IMG/VR virus record: IMGVR_UViG_3300037313_000496
Location: 1 to 41,427 of that record
Length of the DNA: 41,427 bases
Strand: one strand, 5' to 3'
From: a virus
Shown: positions 871 to 23,283 of the stretch, piece by piece
Numbering within the stretch: the first letter of the stretch is position 1
Layout of the letters: every line of letters starts with the position of its first letter
The notes under the pieces: generated by a model
Told to the model about the DNA's origin: nothing
Database searches by the model: none
The model's input: the letters and a program-made list of their open reading frames with translations, nothing else
Made by a program: the position numbers and the translations under genes

Positions 871-3041
871 GCCCGCGCCTCCGGCTTTTGCTTCGCCTGC
901 TTGGCCTTCTGAGCCATCATCTCAAGCCCGGTCTGGTGCTTCACTTCCGTCGCCTCAAGACCCAACTCATGTTCGCGTTCACGCTGGGCCATATCCATCT
1001 GCTGCGCCTGCTGGTCCATCGCCATGCGCTGCTGATCGGCCTGCATTTCCATGCCGAGCTTCTGCCGCATGAGGTCCATTTCCTCACGCTGCATCGCCAA
1101 CTCAGCCCGCATCTTCTCCATGTCCATCTGGTGCTTGGCCTGTGCGGCCTGCATGTCCATCTGGGTCTTGGCCTGATCGGCTTGCGCCTTGGCCTGCTGC
1201 GCCTGCCCGTCAATCTGGGCCTTCTGCTGCACGGCCTTCAGTTTCTCTTGCTCGATCGCAATCTTCGGATCGGGCGGCTTTTGCTGCTGCGCCGCCTGTT
1301 GCAGCTTCAGCTTGGATTGCTCAATCACTTCCTCAAGCGAGCGGCCAGTCTTGAAGCGCCGCAACGCGAAGGCCAGCATCTCGAATGCCATATCCATCAA
1401 CGCGGGCTGCGCCTGGATGATCGGGAACCACGCCGTTACGAACTCCGATGCCGCCTTGAGCATTTCAGAGACGGCCTGCTTCTCGGCCTCGGCATCCTCG
1501 AACACCGTCGAGTCAGTCTCAATATCGATCCGATACGAGCGCAACTTGTCGCTGCGCATGATCTGGATCATCTCAGGCGTAATCGTGCCTTCAACGCTCG
1601 GAGGCTGGGCCGGCGCCTGCTGTGGCATCCCCGGCTGGCCTTCCATCGGCGGGCCGCCATTATGGCCCATGGCAGGCATCATCGCCGGATCAACGAACTT
1701 AAAGCCCGTCATCTCCGCGAGCTTCTGCGGCTCGAAATGCTCCGCGATGATCTCGCACTTGATGCGCAGCGTGTCGCGAATCCACTTCTGAACCTTGTCC
1801 TGCCGCTTCTTCAGCCGGTTGCCGCCGAACTGCGCCTTGATCTTCTGCGCGCCCAACGTCTCGCGCGGGTCCGAACTGCCGCGCATAATGTCGGCAATCC
1901 CGACAACCTCGTAAATCGTCTGCACCCGCAAATCGCGCTGCTGGTGCAACTCACCAAGCACTGTTGCCAATGCCGTCAGGTCTTCCGCCTGGAACGCGGC
2001 AGCCAGCCCGCCCTTGGTGCTCAGGTCGGCATAATTGTGAACCGGGACAAACTCGTTGTCCTGCGCCTTGGACAACCGCGCCAGTTCCTTGAACGTCGCG
2101 TCGTACACACCACGGCGCTTGAGCGCACGGGTCAGCTTGTCAATGCGCGCTTCGATCTCATCCAGCCCATCAGCCTGGTCCTGATAGATCGAGAACTCAG
2201 CCTTGGGGATGAACGTGTCGTTCGCCGTGATCGCCTGTAGCGGCTCGGCGTTCGGGAAAAAGTCCTCCAGCCCATACGGGTCCGGGTCTTTGCGGCACAG
2301 CTTAGGCCAGTTCGGGACAATCCAGACGCGCTCACGCTTGGTCTTGTCGAAGATTTCCCAGACCTCGGCACGCTTGAACGAGTCGGGCACCTTCTCATCA
2401 TCCGGCGCCGGGGACCAATTGAGCGGGATCGAATCCGCATCCTCAAACTGGTTGTCCCGCAAGTCCTGCCGGCTCATCTTGTGGCGGAACGCTTCCCAGG
2501 CCACCTTGTCCCATGTCTTCGCGGGTTCATGCCGGAAGTCGGTCCAGGGCCAGTATTTCTCGTACAACTCCTGCTTGGCGACGTATTCCTTTTCGTCCTC
2601 GCCCTGGGCAGTCTCTGCCTCATAGCAGACGCGGACAACGCCACGGCCGGGCAGCAGGTAATCCTCAATCGCCCGCTCTACGGCCTTCTCGCTATCGTAG
2701 GCGTCCTGACAATAGATCGCCGCGCGCTCGATGATCTCGGCCACCTGCTTGCCGATGGGATCACGGTCAGCGAACCGCCTGCGAATGTCGGGCTTCGCCA
2801 TGCGCGCGAACAGCGCGGCCTTCAGCGTCTCGACGTTCGAGTAAAGGATATTGAATTTCTTATTGGACGCGCGAACCGTCTTGTCCTTGCCGCCCTTGTA
2901 GCGATCGATGACGGCCTTGCCGTCCTTCAGGAACTCGCGGCTGTCACGCTCGGATAGCTCGATCTGCTGCTGCCAATACTTAGCTTCGCCGTCAACGCCC
3001 TCTGCCTCGGATCGGGTTTCGATGCTGGCGGATTCGGTCAT
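867..3041 (-). CDS. Portal protein with ~148-aa C-terminal Q/A/M/K-rich helical extension
   Basis: 724-aa ORF downstream of the large terminase. Size and position are typical of podovirus portals. The tail (about 870-1313) is low-complexity and coiled-coil-like. Confidence 0.75.
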   Translation of the reverse strand: MTESASIETRSEAEGVDGEAKYWQQQIELSERDSREFLKDGKAVIDRYKGGKDKTVRASNKKFNILYSNVETLKAALFARMAKPDIRRRFADRDPIGKQVAEIIERAAIYCQDAYDSEKAVERAIEDYLLPGRGVVRVCYEAETAQGEDEKEYVAKQELYEKYWPWTDFRHEPAKTWDKVAWEAFRHKMSRQDLRDNQFEDADSIPLNWSPAPDDEKVPDSFKRAEVWEIFDKTKRERVWIVPNWPKLCRKDPDPYGLEDFFPNAEPLQAITANDTFIPKAEFSIYQDQADGLDEIEARIDKLTRALKRRGVYDATFKELARLSKAQDNEFVPVHNYADLSTKGGLAAAFQAEDLTALATVLGELHQQRDLRVQTIYEVVGIADIMRGSSDPRETLGAQKIKAQFGGNRLKKRQDKVQKWIRDTLRIKCEIIAEHFEPQKLAEMTGFKFVDPAMMPAMGHNGGPPMEGQPGMPQQAPAQPPSVEGTITPEMIQIMRSDKLRSYRIDIETDSTVFEDAEAEKQAVSEMLKAASEFVTAWFPIIQAQPALMDMAFEMLAFALRRFKTGRSLEEVIEQSKLKLQQAAQQQKPPDPKIAIEQEKLKAVQQKAQIDGQAQQAKAQADQAKTQMDMQAAQAKHQMDMEKMRAELAMQREEMDLMRQKLGMEMQADQQRMAMDQQAQQMDMAQREREHELGLEATEVKHQTGLEMMAQKAKQAKQKPEARA

Positions 3042-3248
3042 TTAGCTGGCAGTCGTCACGGCAACCCACGAGGTTGCGCCATCGGAATTGATATAGGCCC
3101 GCGTCGAGGAGCTTGAGCCATCCAGCCGCAGATAGAGCGTGCCCTTGGCCGCGCTATGGCTCGGCGCACCCGTGCCAGCCTGGAAGAACATCGGATTGGC
3201 GGGGCCAGGCCCGGCCGCGATGGTGATGTTGTCGGCGTGATTGCTCAT
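3042..3248 (-). CDS. Hypothetical small protein (68 aa) between terminase and portal
   Basis: ATGA overlap with the terL stop; its stop abuts the portal ATG (TAAATG). Confidence 0.5.
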   Translation of the reverse strand: MSNHADNITIAAGPGPANPMFFQAGTGAPSHSAAKGTLYLRLDGSSSSTRAYINSDGATSWVAVTTAS

Positions 3249-4702
3249 TCGTCAGCCTGTTCCTGTTCGTATTCGGCCATCACGTCATTGAAGGTCTTGG
3301 GCTTGACCAGTTCGGCCAAGATATTCTTAGGCGTGTTCACGTCCTCAACCCAGGGCCGCGACATGCAGCCATAACGGGCTTCGTCGCCCGCATGGTCTTC
3401 ACCATCGGTGTCCACGTCTTCCGGTCTGTCAGGATCGTGCTGCAACGCCGGGACGGTGCGGATGAACTCCGAGCACGTCGAGAACACGTACAGCATCGGC
3501 CGGCCATCGGCGCCGCCCTTGAGTCTGGCCCGCATCTGGTCCCAGCCGCCCAATGCACCACGAGAACCAACGCGGCGGTTATCAGCTCGCTTGAACCAAA
3601 CCTTGCCGTTTGTGGCCTTCGCCATGCGCTCGGCAATGGACGGGCCGCCGTCTACCGAGAAGGCCGCCGGGTCGAGCACGCCATAGGCAATCAGGTCTTC
3701 GGCGTCACGGGCCTGAATCCCCAGCGCCACTTCTTCAGCGGTCAGCTTCAGCCCGACATTGGGCGCTGATGCGCCGTACCACTCGCGATAACGGATGAGC
3801 GCACCGCGCGGGATGGTTCTCCCTTGAATGACAGTATCGTCACCACAGACGGCCCACCAACCGACCGAGAACGGCTTGGCAGAACCCCAGTCCATGCTAC
3901 GGAAGCGAAGCCAATCTTTCGGTAGTTCAAAAGGCCGGATAACGTGCGCTTCGTTCGACCAGCAATCAAAGAACGCCCCCTCGATAACCGACCAGTCGCC
4001 GTCGAGCCACGCGCGAACTAGCGTTTCCGACCCAGAGGCTTTGAGTTGTTGAACGTAGCTTGGCCCGAGGTATCGGTTGTCGCCAACGCGAGACGGGATA
4101 TAGACCCGCTGTAGCCCGCTCACAGCATCCGTGATGATTTTCCATCCAGCAGGCGCAGGATCGATATACCGCGCCTTCACCCACTGATGGCCGGGACCAC
4201 CAGGGTTGCCCGTCGCTCTGAAACCAACCGGAACGCCAGCGCCAGACCGCAACGTCGCCATTAGCTTGAGGATGGGCTTATCGCTCGGGAAGTTGCCGAT
4301 CTCTTCGACGTACACGCGCGTATAGCTGTGACCCTGATAAGCCTCAGCATCCGCATCGCGCTCAAGATAGGCGAAGCGTAATCGCGCCCCGTTTGGCGCA
4401 CGCCACATCTTCTCTTGTTCGTGGAAGACCCAGCCCAGCGGCGTATAAATCGCCCTGCTGCGCTCTATCGTCTCAATCAGCTCCGTCCGCTGCCGGCGGA
4501 CCATTAACCCAATTGCGTGTTCGCCGTAGGCGTCCGCGTGCTCTAGGAAGTCCCCAAGCACTCCGTCTGTTTTACCGCCGCCACGCGCGCCACCAAAGAA
4601 CGCTTCAAATACAGGGCAGGCGATCAGTGCAGTTTGCGGCCCGGTCTGGGCCTGCCAGATGGTTTCTAGTGCGGAAGATTCGGAGAGTGCTGCTGTTGCC
4701 AT
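3245..4702 (-). CDS. terL: Terminase large subunit
   Basis: 485 aa. Walker A-like GGARGGGKTDG near the N-terminus. Acidic nuclease-type C-terminal half. Synteny terS-terL-portal. Confidence 0.85.
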   Translation of the reverse strand: MATAALSESSALETIWQAQTGPQTALIACPVFEAFFGGARGGGKTDGVLGDFLEHADAYGEHAIGLMVRRQRTELIETIERSRAIYTPLGWVFHEQEKMWRAPNGARLRFAYLERDADAEAYQGHSYTRVYVEEIGNFPSDKPILKLMATLRSGAGVPVGFRATGNPGGPGHQWVKARYIDPAPAGWKIITDAVSGLQRVYIPSRVGDNRYLGPSYVQQLKASGSETLVRAWLDGDWSVIEGAFFDCWSNEAHVIRPFELPKDWLRFRSMDWGSAKPFSVGWWAVCGDDTVIQGRTIPRGALIRYREWYGASAPNVGLKLTAEEVALGIQARDAEDLIAYGVLDPAAFSVDGGPSIAERMAKATNGKVWFKRADNRRVGSRGALGGWDQMRARLKGGADGRPMLYVFSTCSEFIRTVPALQHDPDRPEDVDTDGEDHAGDEARYGCMSRPWVEDVNTPKNILAELVKPKTFNDVMAEYEQEQADE

Positions 4703-5058: not shown

Positions 5059-5319
5059 TTAAATTGGGCGCTGGGAAATAATCTCGGTCGTCTTTCCCTG
5101 CGCGTTCTCGATAATTGCGCGGTCAAACACCGGCGGGAATCCCTCTGGCCGCGTCGGCTTTCCGATGTCGGCACCAACATCATAGCGCGTCGAATCTCCT
5201 CCCTTTTGATGAAGGGTGATTTCCGCGCCGCCGGCCTTGTCCCGCAAAATGGTGAAACTATCGGCCGCCAGAATGACCTGGCGCTCGCCAGGGCCCGAAT
5301 AGAGCTTGATCGTGAACAT
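5059..5319 (-). CDS. Hypothetical protein (86 aa; start trimmed to MFTIKLY)
   Basis: ATG at 5319 preceded by AGGAGAA. The longer track ORF start has no RBS. Confidence 0.5.
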   Translation of the reverse strand: MFTIKLYSGPGERQVILAADSFTILRDKAGGAEITLHQKGGDSTRYDVGADIGKPTRPEGFPPVFDRAIIENAQGKTTEIISQRPI

Positions 5320-5340
5320 CGTGCTTCTCCTGCTGCTGCT

Positions 5341-5381
5341 GAAATAGAAAAGCCGACCAAGGACGAATGCCCCTGATCGGC
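5341..5381 (-). terminator. Intrinsic terminator (11-bp stem with two G-U pairs, 8-nt loop, then TTTTCTATTTC)
   Basis: Minus strand reads GCCGATCAGGGG-cattcgt-CCTTGGTCGGC-TTTTCTATTTC. Confidence 0.65.
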
Positions 5382-5554
5382 CTATCCGCATTTGCGCGGG
5401 TTGTATCTCGCGGGCCGGGCTTGATACCGGCTTACGGCGGGCCTTGCTGGTCTAGCCAGTGGTCGATCCCCGCCAAGCTTCGGGTCCCCGCGTGTCCTTC
5501 CACGCCGCCGCGAGAATCATAAACCCGGCAGGATTTCTCCAACCGGGCGAAGTT

Positions 5555-5830
5555 CTATTTCTCTGGCTTGATGTTCCGATGGACCAAAGCCCTTACCGCC
5601 GGGTCATCAAGCCATTTGCGGACATACCCGTTTGTGCGGGCTTCCACGCCTTCGGCCAACCCGGCCGAATCTGCCGAGAACTCGTTCCCAACAGGCTTGC
5701 CCGTATCAACCTCAGCGTGCCACCCAACCGAGTCCGCTAAAAGCGTGTCTAGGCTATCGATAACCTCACCGCCGCCGGGCTCTTCCTCTTTGAGGGCCAA
5801 AATCGTCCGCCTGTTTGGCTTACGCTGCAT
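5555..5830 (-). CDS. Hypothetical protein (91 aa)
   Basis: ATG preceded by GGGAGGAG. Acidic, protein-like composition. Confidence 0.5.
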   Translation of the reverse strand: MQRKPNRRTILALKEEEPGGGEVIDSLDTLLADSVGWHAEVDTGKPVGNEFSADSAGLAEGVEARTNGYVRKWLDDPAVRALVHRNIKPEK

Positions 5831-11862: not shown

Positions 11863-12081
11863 TCATTCTTCGGCCCCGCGCTTCAAATCAAATTTCAGGA
11901 TGGTGGCGGGATCAATGCCCGTCACTTCCTCGACTTTCGGCAGAAGGGTCTTTCGAACGGACCTTGTGCCGGATTCCCAGCGGCCGACCGTCACCTCCGA
12001 CACGTCAAGCTCTTTGCCGAGAGCCTTGCGCGTCAAACCCTTGGATTCGCGATAAAGCCGTAAGGGGTGCTTGCCAACCAT
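11863..12081 (-). CDS. XRE-family HTH regulator (72 aa), Cro-like by position
   Basis: GLTRKALGKELDVSEVTVGRWESG is HTH_3-like. First gene of the minus-strand operon. The promoter -10 lies 6 nt from the ATG. Confidence 0.7.
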   Translation of the reverse strand: MVGKHPLRLYRESKGLTRKALGKELDVSEVTVGRWESGTRSVRKTLLPKVEEVTGIDPATILKFDLKRGAEE

Positions 12082-12146
12082 ACACCGTATCTAAACCAAA
12101 ACGGTAGGCTCGTCAATAGGGCCTCTTACCGATTTGGCGCGGTGAC
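12082..12146. promoter_or_regulatory. Divergent switch region with a sigma70-like promoter and two operator-like 13-mers
   Basis: Minus strand: TTGACG (12116-12111), 17 nt, TAGATA (12093-12088). CCTACCGTTTTGG lies at 12108-12096 (reverse orientation) and CTTACCGATTTGG at 12125-12137. Confidence 0.6.
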
Positions 12147-12491
12147 ATGTACCGAGATGGTTGGCAGGTTATCCACATGGTTACGCGAATTGGCCCACGG
12201 CGCCCGAGACGGACTTACATTGCCGAATGGCGCGAGAGCCGGGGTTTGACCCAAATAGAGCTGGCGGCCCGTCTGGAGACCACAGACGTGACGATCTCGC
12301 GCTGGGAGACCGGCAAGCGGCAACCGGATATAAACGCGCTGGCGGCCATCGCTGAGGCTCTGGACGTGGATTTAACGGACCTCTACCGGCACCCGGACCA
12401 GCCCAGCGCAGACGCACTGCTGCGGGACCAGCCGCAGGACGTGCGGGAACAAGCGATTAAGCTGATAAAGGCTATTCGGAAGGCCGTTTAG
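12147..12491 (+). CDS. XRE-family HTH regulator (104-114 aa), CI-like by position; no S24 peptidase domain
   Basis: GLTQIELAARLETTDVTISRWETG is HTH_3-like. Alternative start at 12177. Divergent from the Cro-like gene. Confidence 0.7.
   Translation: MYRDGWQVIHMVTRIGPRRPRRTYIAEWRESRGLTQIELAARLETTDVTISRWETGKRQPDINALAAIAEALDVDLTDLYRHPDQPSADALLRDQPQDVREQAIKLIKAIRKAV
12169..12177 (+). promoter_or_regulatory. Perfect DnaA-box 9-mer TTATCCACA overlapping the candidate ATG at 12177
   Basis: Exact match to the canonical E. coli-type DnaA box. About 0.3 exact matches are expected by chance in this window. Confidence 0.3.
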
Positions 12492-12876: not shown

Positions 12877-13239
12877 ATGAAGGAAGATTTGGGGACAACC
12901 ACCTCCTCCATTCTCAGCAATCAGCCGACTGGTGATCTGAGAGTTGAGAACGTTGAAGATTACGTTCGCGAGGCCATTGACCTTTTCCTTCGCGATCCCG
13001 CCGACAGCGATTTCCAGCGCGGCTACTTCTGCGCGCTCGTCAACGTCGCACTTGAGGGTCTCGAATTACCGATTGAGGGCAATCTTGACGTTGCCCATCA
13101 GCAGACATTGCGGATGGCAGTCACGCCGAGTGAAACCGGCCTGACGCCGCAGCAGCTTCGCGAGCAGCGGGACGAGTTGCTGGCGGCGGCCAAACTCGCG
13201 CTGACTGTGATGGCGGCAACGCAGCGGGGCCGGTCATGA
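12877..13239 (+). CDS. Hypothetical early protein (120 aa)
   Basis: GGGAGAGAGAAT then ATG. First gene of the plus-strand early operon. Confidence 0.55.
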   Translation: MKEDLGTTTSSILSNQPTGDLRVENVEDYVREAIDLFLRDPADSDFQRGYFCALVNVALEGLELPIEGNLDVAHQQTLRMAVTPSETGLTPQQLREQRDELLAAAKLALTVMAATQRGRS

Positions 13240-13679
13240 CCCGCGAACAGAAAATCCAATTCGATGACCTGATGGCAACCGCCGTCACCGCGCTCAATCA
13301 GGCGGTCGCCCTCGCTGGCATTCACTCTCTGCCCGGTCAACACGCCCTCGCCTGCGCCAACCTCGCAAAGATCAAGATGCATTGCATCGGATCATATGCG
13401 GATGGCGATGATTTACGCGCTCTGCATGGAAACGTGACCGACCTGTGCCGCGCCATTGATCCTCTCATGGAGATGATTGGTGAGGAAGCGGCGGACAACG
13501 CTACCCGCCATTTCGACCGCGAGGTTTTCAAGGACGTGATGTTCAACGCTGTCGATGGCATGGCGCTCTATGAACTTCGCAACGCTGCCGAGAATGCAGA
13601 TGAAGATGCAGCGGAGAACGAAGAGAACGACCGCGCTGACGATTATTACAAGCTCAACCGCGAAATGATGGGGGCCTAA
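13236..13679 (+). CDS. Hypothetical acidic early protein (147 aa)
   Basis: ATGA overlap with the upstream gene. Acidic C-terminal tail [20 protein letters not shown]. Confidence 0.55.
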
Positions 13680-13681
13680 TC

Positions 13682-14356
13682 GTGGGAATCAAATTCGACG
13701 TTCTCAATCGCTTCTCCGGTGCCGTCCAGTTCACGGCAGAAATCGAGTGCGACGAAAACGAGGCGACCAGCGTAAAGCTCGGGCTGGCGGTGAAGTGGGC
13801 CGTTAAAGCGCGTGCCGACCTCGCGGGTGCCAACCTCGCGGGTGCCTACCTCGCGGGTGCCGACCTCGCGGGTGCCTACCTCGCGGGTGCCAACCTCGCG
13901 GGTGCCAACCTCGCGGGTGCCAACCTCGCGGGTGCCTACCTCGCGGGTGCCTACCTCGCGGGTGCCAACCTCGCGCGTGCCAACCTCGCGGATGCCAACC
14001 TCGCGGGTGCCAACCTCGCGGGTGCCAAGGGCGCAGAACTTGCCATTGCCAAGACGCGCATCCTTCCTGACGGCGATCTGATTGGCTGGAAGAAATGCCA
14101 CAACAACGTCCTGGTTAAGCTTCGCATCCCAGCTGACGCCAAGCGTTCCAGCGCATTTGGCCGGAAATGCCGCGCAGAATTTGCGGACGTGCTGGAAGTG
14201 ATCGGCGCCACCGAGGGAATTTCGCAGCACGACAGCGAAACAAAATACATAGCAGGTCAGCGCGTCACGCCCGACAAGTTTGACGACAACTGGCACGAGG
14301 AATGCTCGTCCGGCATTCACTTCTTCATTACGCGCCTTGAAGCCGAGAATTATTGA
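13682..14356 (+). CDS. Pentapeptide-repeat protein with a C-terminal globular domain
   Basis: GTG start. About 15 consecutive A(N/D/Y)LAG pentapeptides, then a ~110-aa domain ending [16 protein letters not shown]. Confidence 0.8.
13814..14023 (+). repeat. 14 tandem 15-bp units GCC[A/G/T]ACCTCGCGGGT (coding, in frame)
   Basis: Counted directly. Units differ almost only at the 4th base; units 11 and 12 carry one extra substitution each. Confidence 0.95.
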
Positions 14357-14364
14357 GGCTGGTC

Positions 14365-14463
14365 ATGAATGCGATAACACGCATGATCGATCTATTCGGC
14401 CTCGTCACTCTAATTCTAGTCGTCTATGGCGGGGTGATGCTGCTGGAGGTCGTCACGAAATGA
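14365..14463 (+). CDS. Possible 32-aa TM peptide
   Basis: GAGG RBS, MNAITRMIDLFGLVTLILVVYGGVMLLEVVTK, ATGA overlap with the next gene. Very short, so tentative. Confidence 0.3.
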   Translation: MNAITRMIDLFGLVTLILVVYGGVMLLEVVTK

Positions 14464-14618
14464 CCCGCCTTGAACAAATCCAGGAAAGCAAGCGGCGGCT
14501 TCTCAGGCTCCAACGTGAACGCCGATGGAAAGACTACACCGTCGAGCAGATCAAGTTGAAGAACATGATCAATCGGCAGCTGCGGTTTGAAATCAAGATG
14601 GATCGGAGAGCATCATGA
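14460..14618 (+). CDS. Hypothetical basic helical protein (52 aa)
   Basis: Trimmed to MTRLEQIQ. ATGA overlaps at both ends. Confidence 0.4.
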   Translation: MTRLEQIQESKRRLLRLQRERRWKDYTVEQIKLKNMINRQLRFEIKMDRRAS

Positions 14619-15243: not shown

Positions 15244-15464
15244 CCACGTTCTGCGAGAACTGCGATCACGTCCACGCGGAAAGCCGCAAGCGGAGTCCGC
15301 AATCCTGGGTGTGCGTCAAGTTTCCTCGCTTGGAAGGTCAAGGCTTTGTCGCACCGAAGGTGTGGGCGGAAATGGAGCCGTACATGCGGTGCGTAAACAT
15401 CAACGGCGGTGCCTGCCCTTTGTGGGCACCGCAGCGGAACGGCCAGAAGGATAACGGGCTATGA
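15240..15464 (+). CDS. Cys-rich hypothetical protein (74 aa)
   Basis: CENCDH...C...C...C pattern; ATGA overlaps at both ends. Confidence 0.5.
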   Translation: MTTFCENCDHVHAESRKRSPQSWVCVKFPRLEGQGFVAPKVWAEMEPYMRCVNINGGACPLWAPQRNGQKDNGL

Positions 15465-16117
15465 ATTTCTCCGGCGCACAAAAGACGATGCTGGCTGAGA
15501 AGCTGTGCACAGACAAGGTAAAGACACGCGATCAAGGTGGCCGCAAGGTTTCCTATATCGAGGGTTGGCACGCCATCGCAGAAGCCAATCGCATATTCGG
15601 GTTTGATGCGTGGTCGCGGGAAACTGTTGAATTGCGCTGCGTTGCGGAGCGCGAGCGGAAAATCGGCCGCGATAACAACCCCGGATGGGGCGTGTCCTAT
15701 ATCGCCAAGGTCCGCGTCACCGTAGGTGATCTTGTTCGCGAGGGCTGCGGCACCGGCCACGGGATCGACCGTGACTTGGGGCAGGCGCATGAAAGCGCGC
15801 TCAAGGAAGCCGAGACGGACGCGATGAAGCGCGCCCTCATGACCTTCGGCAATCCGTTCGGCTTGGCGCTGTACGACAAAGAACAAAACAACGTGGCCGC
15901 GCCGGTTGACGAGTCCACAAGGGCTTACATCGCCGCCTGTGAGTTGGCGATCAGCACAGCGACGAACGCCAAGGAATTACACGACTGGTGGATGAGCGAT
16001 GCCGAGAAATCAAACCGCCGAGCGATTGGACTTGAAGCCGAAGAAGTGGCTCGGCTCAAGCAACTCGTTCTCGACAAGAAAGAAGCCCTGAAAACTCAGA
16101 CCAAGGAAGCAGCGTAA
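15461..16117 (+). CDS. Rad52/Rad22-family single-strand annealing protein
   Basis: [23 protein letters not shown] ... [27 protein letters not shown] matches the recalled Rad52-family signature. Adjacent to ssb. Confidence 0.75.
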
Positions 16118-16569
16118 TGGCCGGATCAGTCAATAAAGTCATCCTACTCGGGAACGTCGGCAAGGACCCCGAGGTGCGCCGCACTCAGCAAGGCGCCCCG
16201 ATTGTCACCCTTTCTATCGCGACCTCGGAAACCTGGCGAGACAAAAACAGTGGCGAGCGCAAGGAAAAGACCGAGTGGCATCGCGTGGTGATCTTCAACG
16301 AAGGTCTCTGCAAGGTCGCGGAGCAATACGTCAAGAAGGGCAGCAAGCTCTATATTGAAGGCGCGCTGCAAACCAGAAAGTGGACCGACAAGGACGGGGT
16401 TGAGAAATACTCAACCGAGGTCGTCCTGAACGGCTTCAACTCGGTCCTCACGATGCTCGATGGCCGCGCCGACAGCGAAACCGAGCGCAAGAACGACATG
16501 CGAGCGGACCACGCCAAGGACGCCAAAAAAGCGCCAGCCGAAGACATGGACGACGAAATTCCTTTTTGA
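16117..16569 (+). CDS. ssb: Single-stranded DNA-binding protein
   Basis: [16 protein letters not shown]...TEWHRVV OB-fold signature and acidic C-terminal tip DDEIPF. Confidence 0.9.
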
Positions 16570-16572
16570 GCC

Positions 16573-17007
16573 ATGAAATTCCTCGCCGTGAAGCATCTTG
16601 GTTCGCTCAAGCCCGCAGACGATGCGGGGGCGCAAGAGCTTTCAAAGATCGCTCACGGCGAGTTCGTCCAGGTCGAGATCAAGAGACCGCGCAATATCCG
16701 CCATCACCGCATGTTCTGGGCACTGATGACCATCGTTTGGGAAAATATGGATCAGGAACGCTACCCGTCTGTGGAGGACTTTGTGGCGGCCGTGAAGATC
16801 GCGGCTGGTCTGCGCACGCGCATTGAGCTTCCGAACGGTGACGTGGGGTTCATCCCCGGCAGCATCGCCTTCCACAAGATGGATCAGGCCGCGTTCTCTG
16901 AGTTCTATGACCGCGTATGCGACTTGATCGCCAAGCACTTCCTGCCCGGCGTTACGGCGGATGAGCTTCGCAATGAAGTCTCGCTCATGATCGGGGTGAG
17001 CGCATGA
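16573..17007 (+). CDS. NinB/Orf-like or DUF1367-family protein
   Basis: IKRPRNIRHHRMFWALM and a later SIAFHKMDQAAFSEFYDRV parallel the lambda NinB / DUF1367 layout as recalled. Lies in the recombination module. Confidence 0.5.
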   Translation: MKFLAVKHLGSLKPADDAGAQELSKIAHGEFVQVEIKRPRNIRHHRMFWALMTIVWENMDQERYPSVEDFVAAVKIAAGLRTRIELPNGDVGFIPGSIAFHKMDQAAFSEFYDRVCDLIAKHFLPGVTADELRNEVSLMIGVSA

Positions 17008-17384
17008 CCCGCAGCGTCGAGGAATGGATCGGCAAGACGGATGACCAGGCGATCCCGCCTCGCGTGCGACTACGGGTTTTCGAGAGGCATGGCGGCATTT
17101 GCCATCTGTCCGGTCGGAAGATCATGCCGGGCGATGCGTGGGATGTGGATCATGTAATCGCTCTGGTCAATGGCGGCGAGCATCGGGAGTCGAACATGGC
17201 CCCCGCGCTGCGCACCGAGCATCGGAAGAAGACTGCGCGTGATGTTGCGCAGAAAGCCAAGGATCGGCGCATCCGGGCGAAGCATTTGGGAATCAAGAAG
17301 CCGAGCCGCTTTGCAACGGCGCGGAATGGCAAGTTCAAGCAGAAGGTCGGCGGCGGAATCGTGCCGCGTCAACATCGGGGATAG
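17004..17384 (+). CDS. HNH endonuclease
   Basis: CHLSGRKI...DVDHVIALVNGGEHRESNMAPALRTEHRKKT. Confidence 0.75.
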   Translation: MTRSVEEWIGKTDDQAIPPRVRLRVFERHGGICHLSGRKIMPGDAWDVDHVIALVNGGEHRESNMAPALRTEHRKKTARDVAQKAKDRRIRAKHLGIKKPSRFATARNGKFKQKVGGGIVPRQHRG

Positions 17385-22129: not shown

Positions 22130-22477
22130 ATGAGCGTTACGTTGCCTGATTACGCCACGCCAGAGGCTCTTGCCGAACATCTTGGCTGGTCTGAGCGCCG
22201 CGTCCGGGAAGTCGCGCGACGGCTTGGCGCGTGCCGGATTTTGGGCAATCGTATGGTTCTGACACAGGCCGATGTTGATGCGATTATCGAGGCAAGCCGT
22301 CCATGCCCCTTAAAATCTACAAGCGCGGCGATACCTGGCACTTCCGGGGCACGGTTGCCGGTCGGAGATTACGTGGCTCTACTGGCGCTCAGGAAAAAGA
22401 CACAGCGGCCCGTATCGCAGCGGAAATCGAGGCGCGCGAATGGAAAGGTCGCCTTGATGGCCCGTCATCCGTCCTGA
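22130..22477 (+). CDS. Excisionase-like HTH protein; ORF runs 175 nt into the integrase gene
   Basis: LAEHLGWSERRVREVARRLG...LTQADVDAIIE resembles the excisionase/MerR-type HTH. No in-frame stop before 22477. Confidence 0.5.
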   Translation: MSVTLPDYATPEALAEHLGWSERRVREVARRLGACRILGNRMVLTQADVDAIIEASRPCPLKSTSAAIPGTSGARLPVGDYVALLALRKKTQRPVSQRKSRRANGKVALMARHPS

Positions 22478-23283
22478 CGTTTGCGCAAGCCGCGCTGAAA
22501 TACCGGGAGGCCGGGAAACCAACACGGTTTCTCGATAAGATCGAAGATTATTGGAAAGATGCGCTGATCAAGGACATTACACCTGGATCAATCCGCCAAT
22601 CGGCAACCGTTCTTTATCCAAAGGCCACGGGGGCGACCAAAAACCGCGCCGTTATCGCCCCAACGCAGGCGATCATAAACCACGCAGCCGAGCTAGAGCT
22701 TTGCTCGCGAGTCAGGGTCCGGCGGTTTCAGGTTGTCACCAAAACGAAGAAGCCGATCACATGGCAATGGATCGAAACATTCGTCGCACAGGCCAATGAC
22801 CCGTGTATCGCCGCGCTTGCCGTCTTTCTGTTCCTGACCGGCGCCCGCATATCAGAGGCGCTGGCGGTAGAATGGCGCGATATAGACTTCGCCGCGAAGA
22901 AAGTTCTGATCCGAGAAACCAAGGTGGGCAAGGAGCGTCTGGCGCACCTCCCGCCCGTCCTAATCGCCATGCTGGCAAATCTCAAACGCGGACCCGGCAA
23001 GACGGTGTTTCAGTATGCCGATCGTGGCGCGGCGCGGTACGCATGGAAGAAGGCCCTAGCGAACGGGAACATTGAGGCGCTGTCATTCCACAGCACCCGC
23101 CACGGCTTCGCGACGAATCTACTGCATGAGGGAGTGGATCCCGTGACCGTCGCTAAACTCGGAGGCTGGGCGAGCGCACAGCACGTGTTCCAGACCTACG
23201 GCCACTCCAAGGATGACCCGACATTGACCGAGCGATTAGTTGGCACAAATCTGACACAGCCGCGCGGGGTGCAAAAACGATAA
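22303..23283 (+). CDS. int: Tyrosine recombinase (phage integrase)
   Basis: 326 aa. ARISEAL (catalytic Arg region), HSTRHGFAT, and a late Y in HVFQTYGH. Confidence 0.9.
   Translation: MPLKIYKRGDTWHFRGTVAGRRLRGSTGAQEKDTAARIAAEIEAREWKGRLDGPSSVLTFAQAALKYREAGKPTRFLDKIEDYWKDALIKDITPGSIRQSATVLYPKATGATKNRAVIAPTQAIINHAAELELCSRVRVRRFQVVTKTKKPITWQWIETFVAQANDPCIAALAVFLFLTGARISEALAVEWRDIDFAAKKVLIRETKVGKERLAHLPPVLIAMLANLKRGPGKTVFQYADRGAARYAWKKALANGNIEALSFHSTRHGFATNLLHEGVDPVTVAKLGGWASAQHVFQTYGHSKDDPTLTERLVGTNLTQPRGVQKR

What the first reader, a model, noticed from the sequence alone, without database searches (positions are those of the whole stretch)
13682..14356. Early pentapeptide-repeat protein encoded by 14 near-identical 15-bp tandem repeats that vary at a single nucleotide
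The interval 13814-14023 is 14 units of GCC[A/G/T]ACCTCGCGGGT. Units differ almost exclusively at the 4th base, which gives A-N/D/Y-L-A-G pentapeptides. Only the residue after the conserved Ala therefore varies.

Such DNA-level identity implies very recent expansion or ongoing slippage and gene conversion. It predicts copy-number polymorphism.

Pentapeptide-repeat proteins such as Qnr and MfpA are beta-helical DNA mimics that act on DNA-binding enzymes. Here one is fused to a ~110-aa C-terminal domain (ending [14 protein letters not shown]). It is the third gene of the first early operon, a position typical of anti-defence or host-takeover genes.
Basis: partly seen in the sequence, partly recalled or inferred. 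Interest (0 to 1): 0.65.

Follow-up and report, generated by a model that had tools for sequence, protein, structure and literature searches.

The report
Length-variable phage pentapeptide-repeat protein with DUF5758
An early gene of a temperate phage encodes a beta-helix protein whose middle part is written in 14 almost identical 15-base repeats that gain and lose copies very quickly; it belongs to a very large, catalogued but unstudied viral family, and its function, possibly countering host defences, is still untested.

Summary
Window 13814-14023 holds 14 in-frame units of GCC[A/G/T]ACCTCGCGGGT inside a 224-aa ORF (13682-14356, GTG start).

The protein has three parts: a ~44-aa N-terminal cap, a pentapeptide-repeat beta-helix (PF00805) and a C-terminal DUF5758 domain (PF19062). 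This architecture is already catalogued, with more than 6,700 relatives in phages and prophages of many bacterial phyla.

The predicted copy-number polymorphism is confirmed in silico. Sister metagenome contigs show 0 mismatches over 4,047 nt and differ only by one 15-bp unit (13 vs 14).

In 86 related arrays, silent sites are homogenised within an array but differ between arrays (concerted evolution). Exposed residues (N/D/Y and positions 4-5) stay variable. Copy number ranges from 9 to 33, and up to 59 in one genome.

152 mycobacteriophage homologues have diverged repeats and a fixed gene length, which serves as an internal control.

The DNA-mimic idea (Qnr/MfpA-like) is not supported: Qnr/MfpA models score far below cut-off, the tract is nearly neutral, and its length is unconstrained.

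DUF5758 has no solved structural relative, and in other viruses it follows other repeat scaffolds (LRR, HEAT, MORN).

The closest functional precedent is Vibrio phage 24 gp60, an anti-defence pentapeptide-repeat protein with a different C-terminal domain. Function here is inferred, not shown.

The parts
13682..14356 (+). Complete CDS of the pentapeptide-repeat/DUF5758 protein (224 aa, GTG start, TGA stop)
   Evidence: ORF list. Pfam PF00805 and PF19062 both score above their gathering cut-offs. Gene callers used the same start in sister contigs (P0001/P0388).
13682..13813 (+). N-terminal cap (aa 1-44): beta-hairpin plus helix, conserved across the family (..NRFSGxVxFxAEI.. / ..KLGLAVKWA..)
   Evidence: AF2 model has pLDDT 93-97 here, with strands 2-9 and 15-22 and a helix at 29-42. 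The conserved columns are listed.
13814..14023 (+). 14 in-frame 15-bp units GCC[A/G/T]ACCTCGCGGGT encoding A-[N/D/Y]-L-A-G (aa 45-114), about 3.5 coils of a right-handed quadrilateral beta-helix. This is the length-polymorphic part.
   Evidence: TRF and unit parsing. The 13-unit allele is in L004/L005 and the 14-unit allele in L089/L090. AF2 plus Foldseek match Np275/276 at rmsd 0.4-0.7 A.
14024..14068 (+). Last degenerate unit (AKGAE) and linker helix (aa 115-129) between the beta-helix and the C-terminal domain
   Evidence: AF2 helix at 118-125 with lower pLDDT of 61-78.
14069..14344 (+). DUF5758 domain (Pfam envelope aa 130-221). Near-invariant residues are K137, R155, R161-K162-C163-R164, Y189, G192, E207-C208, G211-I-H213-F214 and E220-A221.
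   Evidence: Pfam 2.6e-23. Conservation over 145 diverse members. AF2 model pLDDT 85, pTM 0.77. No PDB neighbour. BFVD neighbours with TM 0.62-0.79.
11863..12491 (.). Divergent pair of HTH_3 regulators (72 aa on the - strand at 11863-12081; 114 aa on the + strand at 12147-12491). This is the immunity/switch region upstream of the operon.
   Evidence: Pfam HTH_3 at 9e-12 and 8e-17.
12877..13679 (+). Two upstream ORFs of the same gene string (120 aa and 147 aa, unknown function). Their stop and start codons overlap or abut those of the target gene.
   Evidence: ORF list. No Pfam, PHROG or PADLOC hit.
15461..17384 (+). Downstream genes of the same string: Rad52-like annealing protein, SSB, NinB/Orf-like mediator and HNH endonuclease. 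The string continues to the integrase at 22303-23283.
   Evidence: Pfam Rad52_Rad22 at 1.9e-38 and SSB at 1.6e-36. PHROG NinB and HNH. The integrase is placed through the collinear sister contig L004.

Best explanation
The gene encodes a three-module accessory protein of a temperate phage.

Shown: the modules are a conserved N-terminal cap, a right-handed quadrilateral beta-helix made of A-[N/D/Y]-L-x-x pentapeptides, and a conserved C-terminal DUF5758 domain.

Shown: the beta-helix is encoded by an in-frame 15-bp minisatellite. Units are gained, lost and copied over one another, presumably by slipped-strand mispairing or unequal recombination. Silent sites are therefore kept identical within one gene but differ between genes.

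Each gain or loss keeps the reading frame. By the known geometry of this fold, each step changes the helix by a quarter turn and reshuffles the exposed residues.

Shown: exposed positions stay variable among units while silent sites do not. Copy number is unconstrained.

Inferred: the beta-helix is a rapidly evolving recognition or decoy surface, or a spacer. DUF5758, with its invariant Arg/Lys/Cys/His/Glu residues, is the constant effector or ligand-binding module. The protein is made early in infection to bind or neutralise a host factor that is itself under conflict, most likely a defence component. The precedent is the pentapeptide-repeat protein gp60 of Vibrio phage 24, which counters the RexAB-like Sucellos system.
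For: Architecture:
- Pfam hits.
- AF2 full-length model pLDDT 88, with the one-residue-per-five strand pattern.
- Foldseek matches to pentapeptide-repeat structures.

Repeat dynamics:
- Sister contigs L004/L005 vs L089/L090 have 0 mismatches in 4,047 nt and one 15-bp gap.
- Two prophages in Agrobacterium pusense CP050898.1 have identical flanks, 17 vs 18 units, and a rearranged unit order.
- 94 of 100 protein pairs with >=90% identical C-flank differ in unit number.
- 79 of 80 IMG/VR relatives have a period-15 array of 4.5-33 copies at 81-96% match, with different consensus units.
- Within-array diversity at third codon positions averages 0.044, against 0.39-0.65 between arrays at four of the five third positions (0.046 at codon 2, where C is fixed). 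It is 0.49 at codon 2 position 1 and 0.20-0.28 at codons 4-5 positions 1-2.
- CAC (His) is equally reachable by one mutation but makes up 0.3% of codon 2, against 52% AAC, 33% GAC and 10% TAC. Selection therefore filters the variants.
- Control: 152 cluster E mycobacteriophages have diverged repeats and a constant 843-nt gene.

Modularity:
- DUF5758 is almost always C-terminal. It also follows BspA-type LRRs and HEAT, MORN, RING and pentapeptide scaffolds in phages and giant viruses.
- 22 positions are >=90% conserved, including R155, R161, K162, C163, R164, Y189, E207, C208, H213 and E220.

Context:
- The gene sits promoter-proximal in an early recombination/integration gene string here, in Rhizobium phage RHph_TM3_3_14B, in Agrobacterium prophages and in mycobacteriophage 244.
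- It has no conserved partner gene.

Precedent:
- Deleting 24_60 makes phage 24 highly sensitive to Sucellos. Escapers carry Y112R and N115D in the repeats, and its repeat region was 'difficult to assemble' (bioRxiv 10.1101/2024.07.02.601686).
- The deposited gene has a 7.7-copy 15-bp array at 93% match.
Against: - No experiment exists for any DUF5758 protein, and no paper in the library mentions the domain.
- The 24_60 protein has a different N-terminus and a C-terminal domain with no detectable similarity to DUF5758. The analogy rests on the repeat module only.
- All sequenced carriers seen here are temperate phages or prophages, so expression from the prophage (a host-protective role) is not excluded.
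- Copy-number differences come from assemblies, mostly short-read. Collapse or expansion of identical units is a known artefact, and eight IMG/VR contigs end inside the array.
- The identical-flank pair statistic is biased, because that database merges sequences >=90% identical.
- High non-synonymous diversity among units could partly reflect old unit types being shuffled rather than ongoing positive selection.
Confidence: 0.4

Rival explanations
1. Prophage-encoded host-protective factor (superinfection exclusion or defence). The protein would be made in the lysogen, and its variable beta-helix would recognise components of incoming phages, as repeat sensors do in bacterial NLR-like proteins.
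For: - The gene lies between the repressor and the integrase, on the repressor's strand, in Agrobacterium prophages and in Rhizobium phage RHph_TM3_3_14B. Prophage defence genes often sit in such a region (established knowledge).
- All carriers seen are temperate.
- Pentapeptide repeats, LRR and HEAT are listed as predicted sensor modules of bacterial NACHT proteins (bioRxiv 10.1101/2022.07.19.500537).
- Rapid diversification fits a sensor as well as it fits an inhibitor.
Against: - No PADLOC model matches.
- There is no effector-type domain of known defence systems and no conserved partner gene.
- In mycobacteriophage 244 the gene is on the strand divergent from the repressor, among early lytic genes.
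- In the window it heads a string of recombination genes typical of early lytic expression.
- The domain also occurs in giant viruses of eukaryotes.
Confidence: 0.2
2. Qnr/MfpA-like DNA mimic that binds a DNA enzyme (gyrase or topoisomerase IV, or a RecBCD/AddAB-type nuclease in the manner of lambda Gam) to protect or favour phage DNA.
For: - The fold is the same as MfpA, QnrB1 and AlbG (Foldseek E 7e-4 to 8e-3).
- The gene sits upstream of Rad52-like, SSB and NinB recombination genes, where lambda and P22 carry anti-RecBCD genes (placement of gam/abc is established knowledge).
- 40 of 121 relatives have a tract net charge <=-5.
Against: - NCBIfam Qnr/MfpA models score 16-30 bits against cut-offs of 240-500.
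- The tract is nearly neutral here (-2) and >=0 in 35 of 121 relatives.
- Qnr and MfpA act as dimers joined by C-terminal helices with a defined length (PMC10886550). Here the C-terminus is a 95-aa globular domain, and helix length varies from 9 to 33 units with no mod-4 preference (p=0.31). That is hard to reconcile with a fixed DNA-like geometry.
- Recombination genes neighbour the gene in only about 10 of 84 loci.
Confidence: 0.12
3. The repeat polymorphism is an assembly artefact or neutral noise. The array would be an unstable but functionally irrelevant spacer, and only the N-cap and DUF5758 would matter.
For: - Arrays longer than a read are hard to assemble, and eight IMG/VR contigs end inside the array.
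- Many Salmonella 24_60-like entries are annotated 'partial'.
- The phage 24 authors needed PCR and Sanger sequencing to resolve their repeat.
- Copy number shows no preferred value or phase.
Against: - Each allele (13 and 14 units) was recovered twice in independent samples with identical unit order.
- The 17- and 18-unit genes lie on one 3.1-Mb contig of a complete chromosome.
- The A-x-L framework is 99.4-99.6% conserved. Exposed positions use a restricted residue set and His is excluded, which indicates selection on the repeat protein itself.
- DUF5758 proteins with at least 5 units make up 103 of the 147 best representatives.
Confidence: 0.1

Closest known systems
Pfam architecture Pentapeptide (PF00805) + DUF5758 (PF19062): 'pentapeptide repeat-containing protein' of phages and prophages, e.g. 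Rhizobium phage RHph_TM3_3_14B EVB67_031, Mycobacterium phage 244 gp59, Ralstonia phage BOESR1 HIBIKMCM_00009
   Same: The three-module layout is the same. The Rhizobium phage protein is 72% identical. The position in the early region is also the same.
   Different: Nothing essential differs, since this gene is a member. The family has no studied representative. The mycobacteriophage branch has diverged repeats and a fixed length.
Vibrio phage 24 gp60 (SBVc24_0060), an anti-defence protein against the RexAB-like Sucellos system (bioRxiv 10.1101/2024.07.02.601686)
   Same: It is a small phage protein built from ANL/ADL pentapeptides. These are encoded by a homogenised 15-bp array (7.7 copies at 93% match in KJ572844.2) and are followed by a globular C-terminal domain. 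Adaptive changes map to exposed repeat residues (Y112R, N115D).
   Different: Its C-terminal domain has no Pfam family and shows no similarity to DUF5758. Its N-terminus is of a different type. It comes from a different phage group and its relatives are Salmonella prophage proteins.
Qnr / MfpA / AlbG / McbG topoisomerase-protecting pentapeptide-repeat proteins
   Same: They share the right-handed quadrilateral beta-helix fold.
   Different: - They have fixed-length, diverged repeats.
- They dimerise through a C-terminal helix and have an electronegative DNA-like surface (PMC10886550).
- Here the family models score far below cut-off, the tract is near-neutral, the length is variable, and a C-terminal DUF5758 domain is present.
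NleL / SopA type III effectors (N-terminal pentapeptide beta-helix plus C-terminal HECT-like E3 ligase)
   Same: They have the same logic of a beta-helix recognition module followed by a catalytic or effector domain. The beta-helix part is hit by Foldseek (E 5e-3).
   Different: The C-terminal domain is unrelated. They are bacterial effectors that act in eukaryotic cells, and no DNA-level repeat homogenisation is known for them.
In-frame intragenic minisatellites of bacterial proteins, e.g. E. coli tolA (PMC3477136, from its title and abstract)
   Same: They share in-frame copy-number variation that changes protein length without switching the gene off.
   Different: Those are cellular envelope or surface proteins. 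Here the array encodes a regular beta-solenoid in a cytoplasmic phage protein, and the behaviour is seen across a whole family of thousands of genes.

Membership tests
Pentapeptide-repeat proteins (PF00805) | Tandem A(D/N)LXX pentapeptides scoring above the Pfam gathering threshold | tested here: met
   67.6 bits against a cut-off of 20.2. All 14 units match A-[NDY]-L-x-x. PDB sequence hits to Np275/276 and HetL (All3740) have E 1e-16 to 1e-17, and hits to synthetic beta1 solenoids reach about 1e-24.
Pentapeptide-repeat proteins (PF00805) | Right-handed quadrilateral beta-helix fold | tested here: met
   This rests on a predicted structure only. The AF2 model has pLDDT 90-97 across the tract. 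Foldseek matches 2j8k, 2j8i and 5dns at rmsd 0.4-0.8 A over 65-71 columns.
DUF5758 (PF19062) | Match to the family model above the gathering threshold, over nearly the whole model | tested here: met
   82.4 bits against a cut-off of 26.9, covering model positions 8-105 of 105 and aa 130-221.
DUF5758 (PF19062) | Family signature residues (RKCR ... Y..G ... EC..GIHF ... EA) at the C-terminus of the protein | tested here: met
   All 22 positions that are >=90% conserved in 145 diverse members are present in the window protein. The domain is C-terminal in nearly all of the 150 best representatives.
Qnr / MfpA topoisomerase-protecting PRPs | Score above the NCBIfam family cut-offs | tested here: not met
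   QnrA 29.9 bits against 450, Qnr 23.2 against 240, MfpA 23.7 against 360.
Qnr / MfpA topoisomerase-protecting PRPs | Dimeric rod of defined length with an electronegative, DNA-like surface | tested here: not met
   Tract net charge is -2 and whole-protein charge is -3. Unit number in the family runs from 9 to 33 with no phase preference. The C-terminus is a globular domain, not a dimerisation helix. The oligomeric state itself was not testable.
Qnr / MfpA topoisomerase-protecting PRPs | Binds gyrase or topoisomerase IV and alters quinolone action | not testable with these tools
   This needs biochemistry or susceptibility assays.
Phage 24 gp60-type anti-defence PRPs | Phage protein with a DNA-homogenised pentapeptide array | tested here: met
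   Window array at 94% match. The 24_60 array is at 93% match.
Phage 24 gp60-type anti-defence PRPs | Homologous C-terminal domain | tested here: not met
   24_60 has no DUF5758 hit in Pfam. A search with its C-domain returns only Vibrio and Salmonella-type proteins that lack PF19062.
Phage 24 gp60-type anti-defence PRPs | Counteracts a RexAB-like (Sucellos) abortive-infection system | not testable with these tools
   This needs infection assays.
Diversity-generating retroelement (DGR) target | Template repeat elsewhere plus adenine-specific variation at both A positions of AAC codons | tested here: not met
   No second copy of the repeat exists in the window. Only the first base of codon 2 varies; diversity is 0.49 there and 0.044 at the second base.
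Phase-variable contingency locus | Repeat unit length is not a multiple of 3, so copy changes switch the frame on and off | tested here: not met
   The unit is 15 bp. All alleles seen stay in frame.

The most novel reading that the evidence does not exclude
PRP-DUF5758 proteins may be one face of a pan-viral class of modular conflict proteins. In this reading DUF5758 is a still-unknown enzymatic or ligand-binding effector with an invariant Arg/Lys/Cys/His/Glu site and a fold without solved relatives. It would be carried on interchangeable 'superstructure' repeat scaffolds: pentapeptide, LRR, HEAT and MORN, from phages of many phyla to giant viruses.

In phages, the in-frame 15-bp minisatellite would be a selected evolvability device. 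It would let the recognition surface and length change within a few generations to track host immunity. This would be a recombination-based counterpart of DGR or antigenic variation for an intracellular viral protein.
Probability: 0.22. Interest if true: 0.75.

Novelty: new member of a known kind. Interest (0 to 1): 0.45.

Why it matters
The gene itself is an ordinary member of a catalogued family. The family, however, is very large: more than 6,700 hits in the protein search, and 4,768 clusters at 50% identity carrying DUF5758. It is found in phages and prophages of many phyla, and structurally related C-terminal domains occur in giant viruses. It is completely unstudied.

The analysis shows that its beta-helix module evolves by concerted, in-frame repeat turnover while exposed residues stay diverse. 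This is a signature usually associated with molecular arms races.

If the proposed role is right, the family would be a widespread source of anti-defence or host-targeting activities. It would also be a natural system for studying how solenoid length and surface tune recognition.

There is a practical point as well. These arrays break short-read assemblies and are probably mis-sized in many deposited phage genomes.

Tried and rejected
- **Structure search for DUF5758.** The best Foldseek PDB hit had E 1.4 and TM <0.3. A profile search of PDB sequences gave a best E of 0.21. No functional lead came from either.
- **Literature.** No paper in the library mentions 'DUF5758'. Searches on cluster E mycobacteriophages and on phage early pentapeptide-repeat proteins gave nothing relevant.
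- **More alleles of this phage.** Exact searches with 27-nt flanks of the array found nothing in metagenome contigs (two scans) or viral contigs. Extra alleles came only from the protein-indexed contigs.
- **Conserved partner gene.** Clustering 1,296 ORFs from 84 loci showed that the commonest neighbour, an HTH/S24 repressor, occurs in only 11 loci.
- **Defence-system membership.** No PADLOC hit.
- **DGR.** Rejected.
- **Phase variation.** Rejected, because the units are in frame.
- **Tail-fibre role.** The PHROG 28766 hit (9e-6) covers only the repeats, and the gene lies in the early region.
- **Link between the second PRP of locus L011 and the 24_60 C-domain.** L011's second PRP has the same N-cap and a different C-terminus. 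A shared short motif (V[KR]AGC..[FY]T) looked suggestive, but BLASTP finds no alignment and the 24_60 C-domain search does not retrieve it. I do not claim homology.
- **DNA-level function of the repeat.** This is unlikely, because silent positions differ freely between arrays.
Full report
**1.

Window 13814-14023 consists of 14 consecutive 15-bp units. Twelve are GCC-[A/G/T]AC-CTC-GCG-GGT and differ only at base 4. Unit 11 has GCG-CGT and unit 12 has GCG-GAT. No unit carries a silent difference.

Tandem Repeats Finder reports one array in the whole 41.4-kb window: 13808-14028, period 15, 14.7 copies, 94% matches, score 379. A two-unit probe with up to 3 mismatches hits 13 times, all inside the array, against 0 expected in shuffles.

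The array lies in frame in a 224-aa ORF (13682-14356, + strand, GTG start). The start agrees with homologues and with gene calls on sister contigs. Long ORFs on the opposite strand and in the +2 frame through the array are repeat by-products.

**2. What the protein is**

Pfam finds Pentapeptide (PF00805, 67.6 bits, aa 45-~115) and DUF5758 (PF19062, 82.4 bits, aa 130-221). Both are far above their cut-offs. PHROG matches are to families of unknown function.

AlphaFold2 with a 50-sequence alignment gives a confident model (mean pLDDT 88). It has four parts:
- a cap of a beta-hairpin and a helix (aa 1-44);
- a regular solenoid (aa 45-117);
- a short helix;
- a mainly beta C-terminal domain.

The solenoid superposes on solved pentapeptide-repeat proteins. 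Np275/276 match at rmsd 0.4-0.7 A, and MfpA, QnrB1, AlbG and NleL/SopA are also hit.

The isolated C-terminal domain was modelled at pLDDT 85 and pTM 0.77. It has no neighbour among solved structures by fold (best E 1.4, TM <0.3) or by profile.

**3. The family**

The full-length search returns 6,734 proteins at E<=1e-5. The top 120 all share the same three-module layout, with lengths of 203-369 aa.

A profile of the C-terminal domain finds 4,768 clusters at 50% identity, and the domain is almost always at the C-terminus. Of the 147 best representatives read, 103 have at least five pentapeptide units. Others have fewer units, other N-terminal regions, or none. One has BspA-type leucine-rich repeats.

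In the viral predicted-structure library, the same fold (TM 0.62-0.79) follows HEAT, MORN, RING or pentapeptide regions. These hits are in phages and in giant viruses such as klosneuviruses, mimiviruses and pithoviruses.

Across 145 diverse members, 22 positions are >=90% conserved. They include K137, R155, R161-K162-C163-R164, Y189, E207-C208, G211-I-H213-F214 and E220. Such a polar invariant set suggests a catalytic, metal-binding or ligand-binding site. That is an inference.

Named phage relatives are:
- Rhizobium phage RHph_TM3_3_14B (72% identity);
- Ralstonia phage BOESR1;
- 152 cluster E mycobacteriophages, e.g. 244 gp59.

In bacterial genomes the family occurs in Alpha-, Beta- and Gammaproteobacteria, Firmicutes, Actinobacteria, Saccharibacteria, Chloroflexi, Verrucomicrobia, Planctomycetes and others.

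**4. Repeat dynamics**

*Direct evidence of polymorphism*
- Four sister contigs from related JGI samples carry this gene. L004 and L005 have 13 units; L089 and L090, like the window, have 14.
- L004 and L089 show 0 mismatches over 4,047 nt and a single gap. The gap is one GCCTACCTCGCGGGT unit, at the place where the window has two identical neighbouring units.
- A single 3.1-Mb Agrobacterium pusense chromosome contig carries two related prophages. Their copies have identical flanks (0 mismatches in 459 nt) but 17 vs 18 units in a different order.
- Among 121 family proteins, 12 pairs have 100% identical flanks and 11 of these differ in unit number, by 1-10 units. Of 100 pairs with >=90% identical C-flank, 94 differ.
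- Caveat: the database merges sequences >=90% identical, which inflates these fractions.

*Concerted evolution*
- Of 80 IMG/VR relatives at 46-79% protein identity, 79 show a period-15 array. The arrays have 4.5-33 copies at 81-96% match, each with its own consensus unit.
- Over 86 arrays of at least 8 units, mean pairwise diversity among units of one array at third codon positions is 0.026-0.064.
- Consensus units of different arrays differ by 0.39-0.65 at four of the five third positions (0.046 at codon 2, where C is fixed).
- Silent sites are therefore homogenised within a gene and free between genes. This also argues against a conserved DNA-level motif.

*Retained surface diversity*
- Within arrays, diversity is 0.49 at the first base of codon 2.
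- It is 0.20-0.28 at the first two bases of codons 4 and 5. These are the three outward-facing residues of the pentapeptide.
- Codon 2 is AAC 52%, GAC 33%, TAC 10% and CAC 0.3%. His is mutationally as accessible as Asp or Tyr but is excluded, so the variation is filtered by selection.

*Control*
- The mycobacteriophage branch has diverged repeats (no TRF array).
- All 152 of its phages have the same 843-nt gene at 94-100% identity.
- Copy-number instability therefore goes with DNA-level identity, as a slippage or unequal-recombination mechanism predicts.
- Most arrays in genomes of distant phyla are also homogenised, with third-position identity of 0.9-1.0. A minority are diverged. One Adlercreutzia gene has 59 units.

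*No length constraint*
- Unit numbers of 9-33 show no preference modulo 4 (30/36/33/22, p=0.31).
- The relative rotation and distance of the cap and DUF5758 are therefore not fixed.

**5. Genomic context**

The window is a temperate-phage genome. A divergent pair of HTH_3 regulators lies at 11863-12491. A 385-bp gap follows, containing one weak promoter-like match.

After the gap comes a tightly packed + strand string:
- two unknown ORFs;
- the target gene;
- five small or unknown ORFs;
- a Rad52-like annealing protein, SSB, a NinB/Orf-like mediator and an HNH endonuclease;
- further downstream, the integrase, placed through collinear L004.

This resembles the lambda pL-type early recombination/integration operon. 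The comparison rests on established knowledge, not on a test here.

The same relative position, just downstream of the immunity genes, is seen in the Rhizobium phage, the Agrobacterium prophages and phage 244.

Clustering ORFs from 84 loci reveals no conserved partner. The commonest neighbour occurs in 11 loci. No PADLOC defence model matches the protein or its neighbours, apart from generic HTH hits.

**6. How it most likely works**

Shown:
- the three-module architecture;
- in-frame expansion and contraction with homogenisation of the solenoid-coding array;
- selection that keeps the A-x-L framework while preserving diversity at exposed residues;
- a constant DUF5758 module;
- stand-alone gene behaviour in early regions.

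Inferred: the solenoid is a fast-evolving recognition or decoy surface and DUF5758 is the effector or anchor. The protein would act early against a host factor in conflict with the phage.

The only experimental precedent I found is Vibrio phage 24 gp60. It is a pentapeptide-repeat protein whose deletion makes the phage highly sensitive to the RexAB-like Sucellos system. Its escape mutations, Y112R and N115D, lie in the repeats. The authors note that the repeat region was hard to assemble (bioRxiv 10.1101/2024.07.02.601686).

The deposited gene has a 93%-identical 15-bp array. The double change ..LYGAN.. to ..LRGAD.. looks like a unit-to-unit conversion; this is my inference. However, its C-terminal domain is unrelated to DUF5758. 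This is an analogy of the repeat module, not family membership.

I put 0.4 on the early anti-host/anti-defence reading. Separately, outside that rival scale, I put about 0.9 on the structural and evolutionary description.

**7. Rivals**

- **Prophage-expressed protective factor or sensor (0.2).** It fits the temperate carriers and the location next to the repressor and integrase. It has no support from known defence models.
- **Qnr/MfpA-like DNA mimic acting on gyrase or a RecBCD-type nuclease (0.12).** It shares the fold and sits near recombination genes. Against it, the family models score 16-30 bits against cut-offs of 240-500. The tract is nearly neutral (-2 here, and >=0 in 35 of 121 relatives). 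Qnr/MfpA function as helix-joined dimers of defined length (PMC10886550), whereas here length is free and the C-terminus is a globular domain.
- **Assembly artefact or neutral spacer (0.1).** Eight IMG/VR contigs end inside the array. However, both alleles were recovered twice with identical unit order, and one chromosome contig holds two different lengths.

DGR targeting and phase variation were tested and rejected (the 15-bp unit keeps the frame).

**8. Novelty and verdict**

The gene is a new member of a catalogued but unstudied family. I found no description of the family's repeat behaviour or of DUF5758 in the searchable literature.

The functional reading as a DNA mimic is not supported, and the anti-defence idea remains a reasonable, untested hypothesis.

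Interest is moderate at 0.45. The single gene is ordinary, while the family-wide pattern and the unknown DUF5758 module deserve experimental follow-up.

Noticed in passing
window 13260 (boundary); L004 8339, L089/L090: Sister phages are 99.4-99.6% identical to the window from 13260 onward (10.85 kb with L004). Upstream they are unrelated or only about 83% similar. The immunity/regulator region and the ORF directly upstream of the target gene have therefore been exchanged, with a mosaic junction inside ORF 13236-13679.
   Followed up: partly
L027, L033, L049, L059, L066, L069, L071, L080 (arrays start at base 1-3 of the locus): Eight of 80 IMG/VR contigs end inside the 15-bp array. Many Salmonella 24_60-like proteins are also annotated 'partial'. 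These arrays break short-read assemblies, so deposited unit numbers may be unreliable.
   Followed up: partly
L041 3160-3489 and 4118-4567; L137 and L157 (2-3 genes each): Some phages and prophages carry two or three tandem PRP-DUF5758 paralogues. In L041 these are 22 and 30 units with different unit types.
   Followed up: no
L011 about 5100-5700 (second array 5204-5467): About 0.7 kb downstream of the PRP-DUF5758 gene lies a second pentapeptide-repeat gene. It has the same type of N-terminal cap and a homogenised 17.6-unit array, but a different ~75-aa C-terminal domain with no Pfam family. This suggests C-terminal domain swapping on a common chassis. A short motif resemblance to phage 24 gp60 was not confirmed by BLASTP.
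   Followed up: partly
L087 601-1437 (- strand), Agrobacterium pusense CP050898.1 prophage: The prophage that carries the 18-unit gene also encodes a Gad2 (anti-Gabija, PF26128) homologue in the divergent operon. This element therefore carries a homologue of a known anti-defence family.
   Followed up: no
L129 (Adlercreutzia shanghongiae NZ_JAYMFI010000009.1), match 3001-3948: This is the extreme case: 59 pentapeptide units with 94% mean DNA identity between units.
   Followed up: no
window 14367-14618: Two very small ORFs (about 32 and 52 aa) directly follow the target gene and are conserved in all sister contigs. The first is hydrophobic (..LFGLVTLILVVYGGVMLLEVV..). They have no family match.
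   Followed up: no
window 13676-14320 (-) and 13812-14081 (+): Long ORFs made of GTREV and PTSRV repeats run through the array on the other strand and in another frame. They are artefacts of the repeat and could be miscalled as genes.
   Followed up: yes
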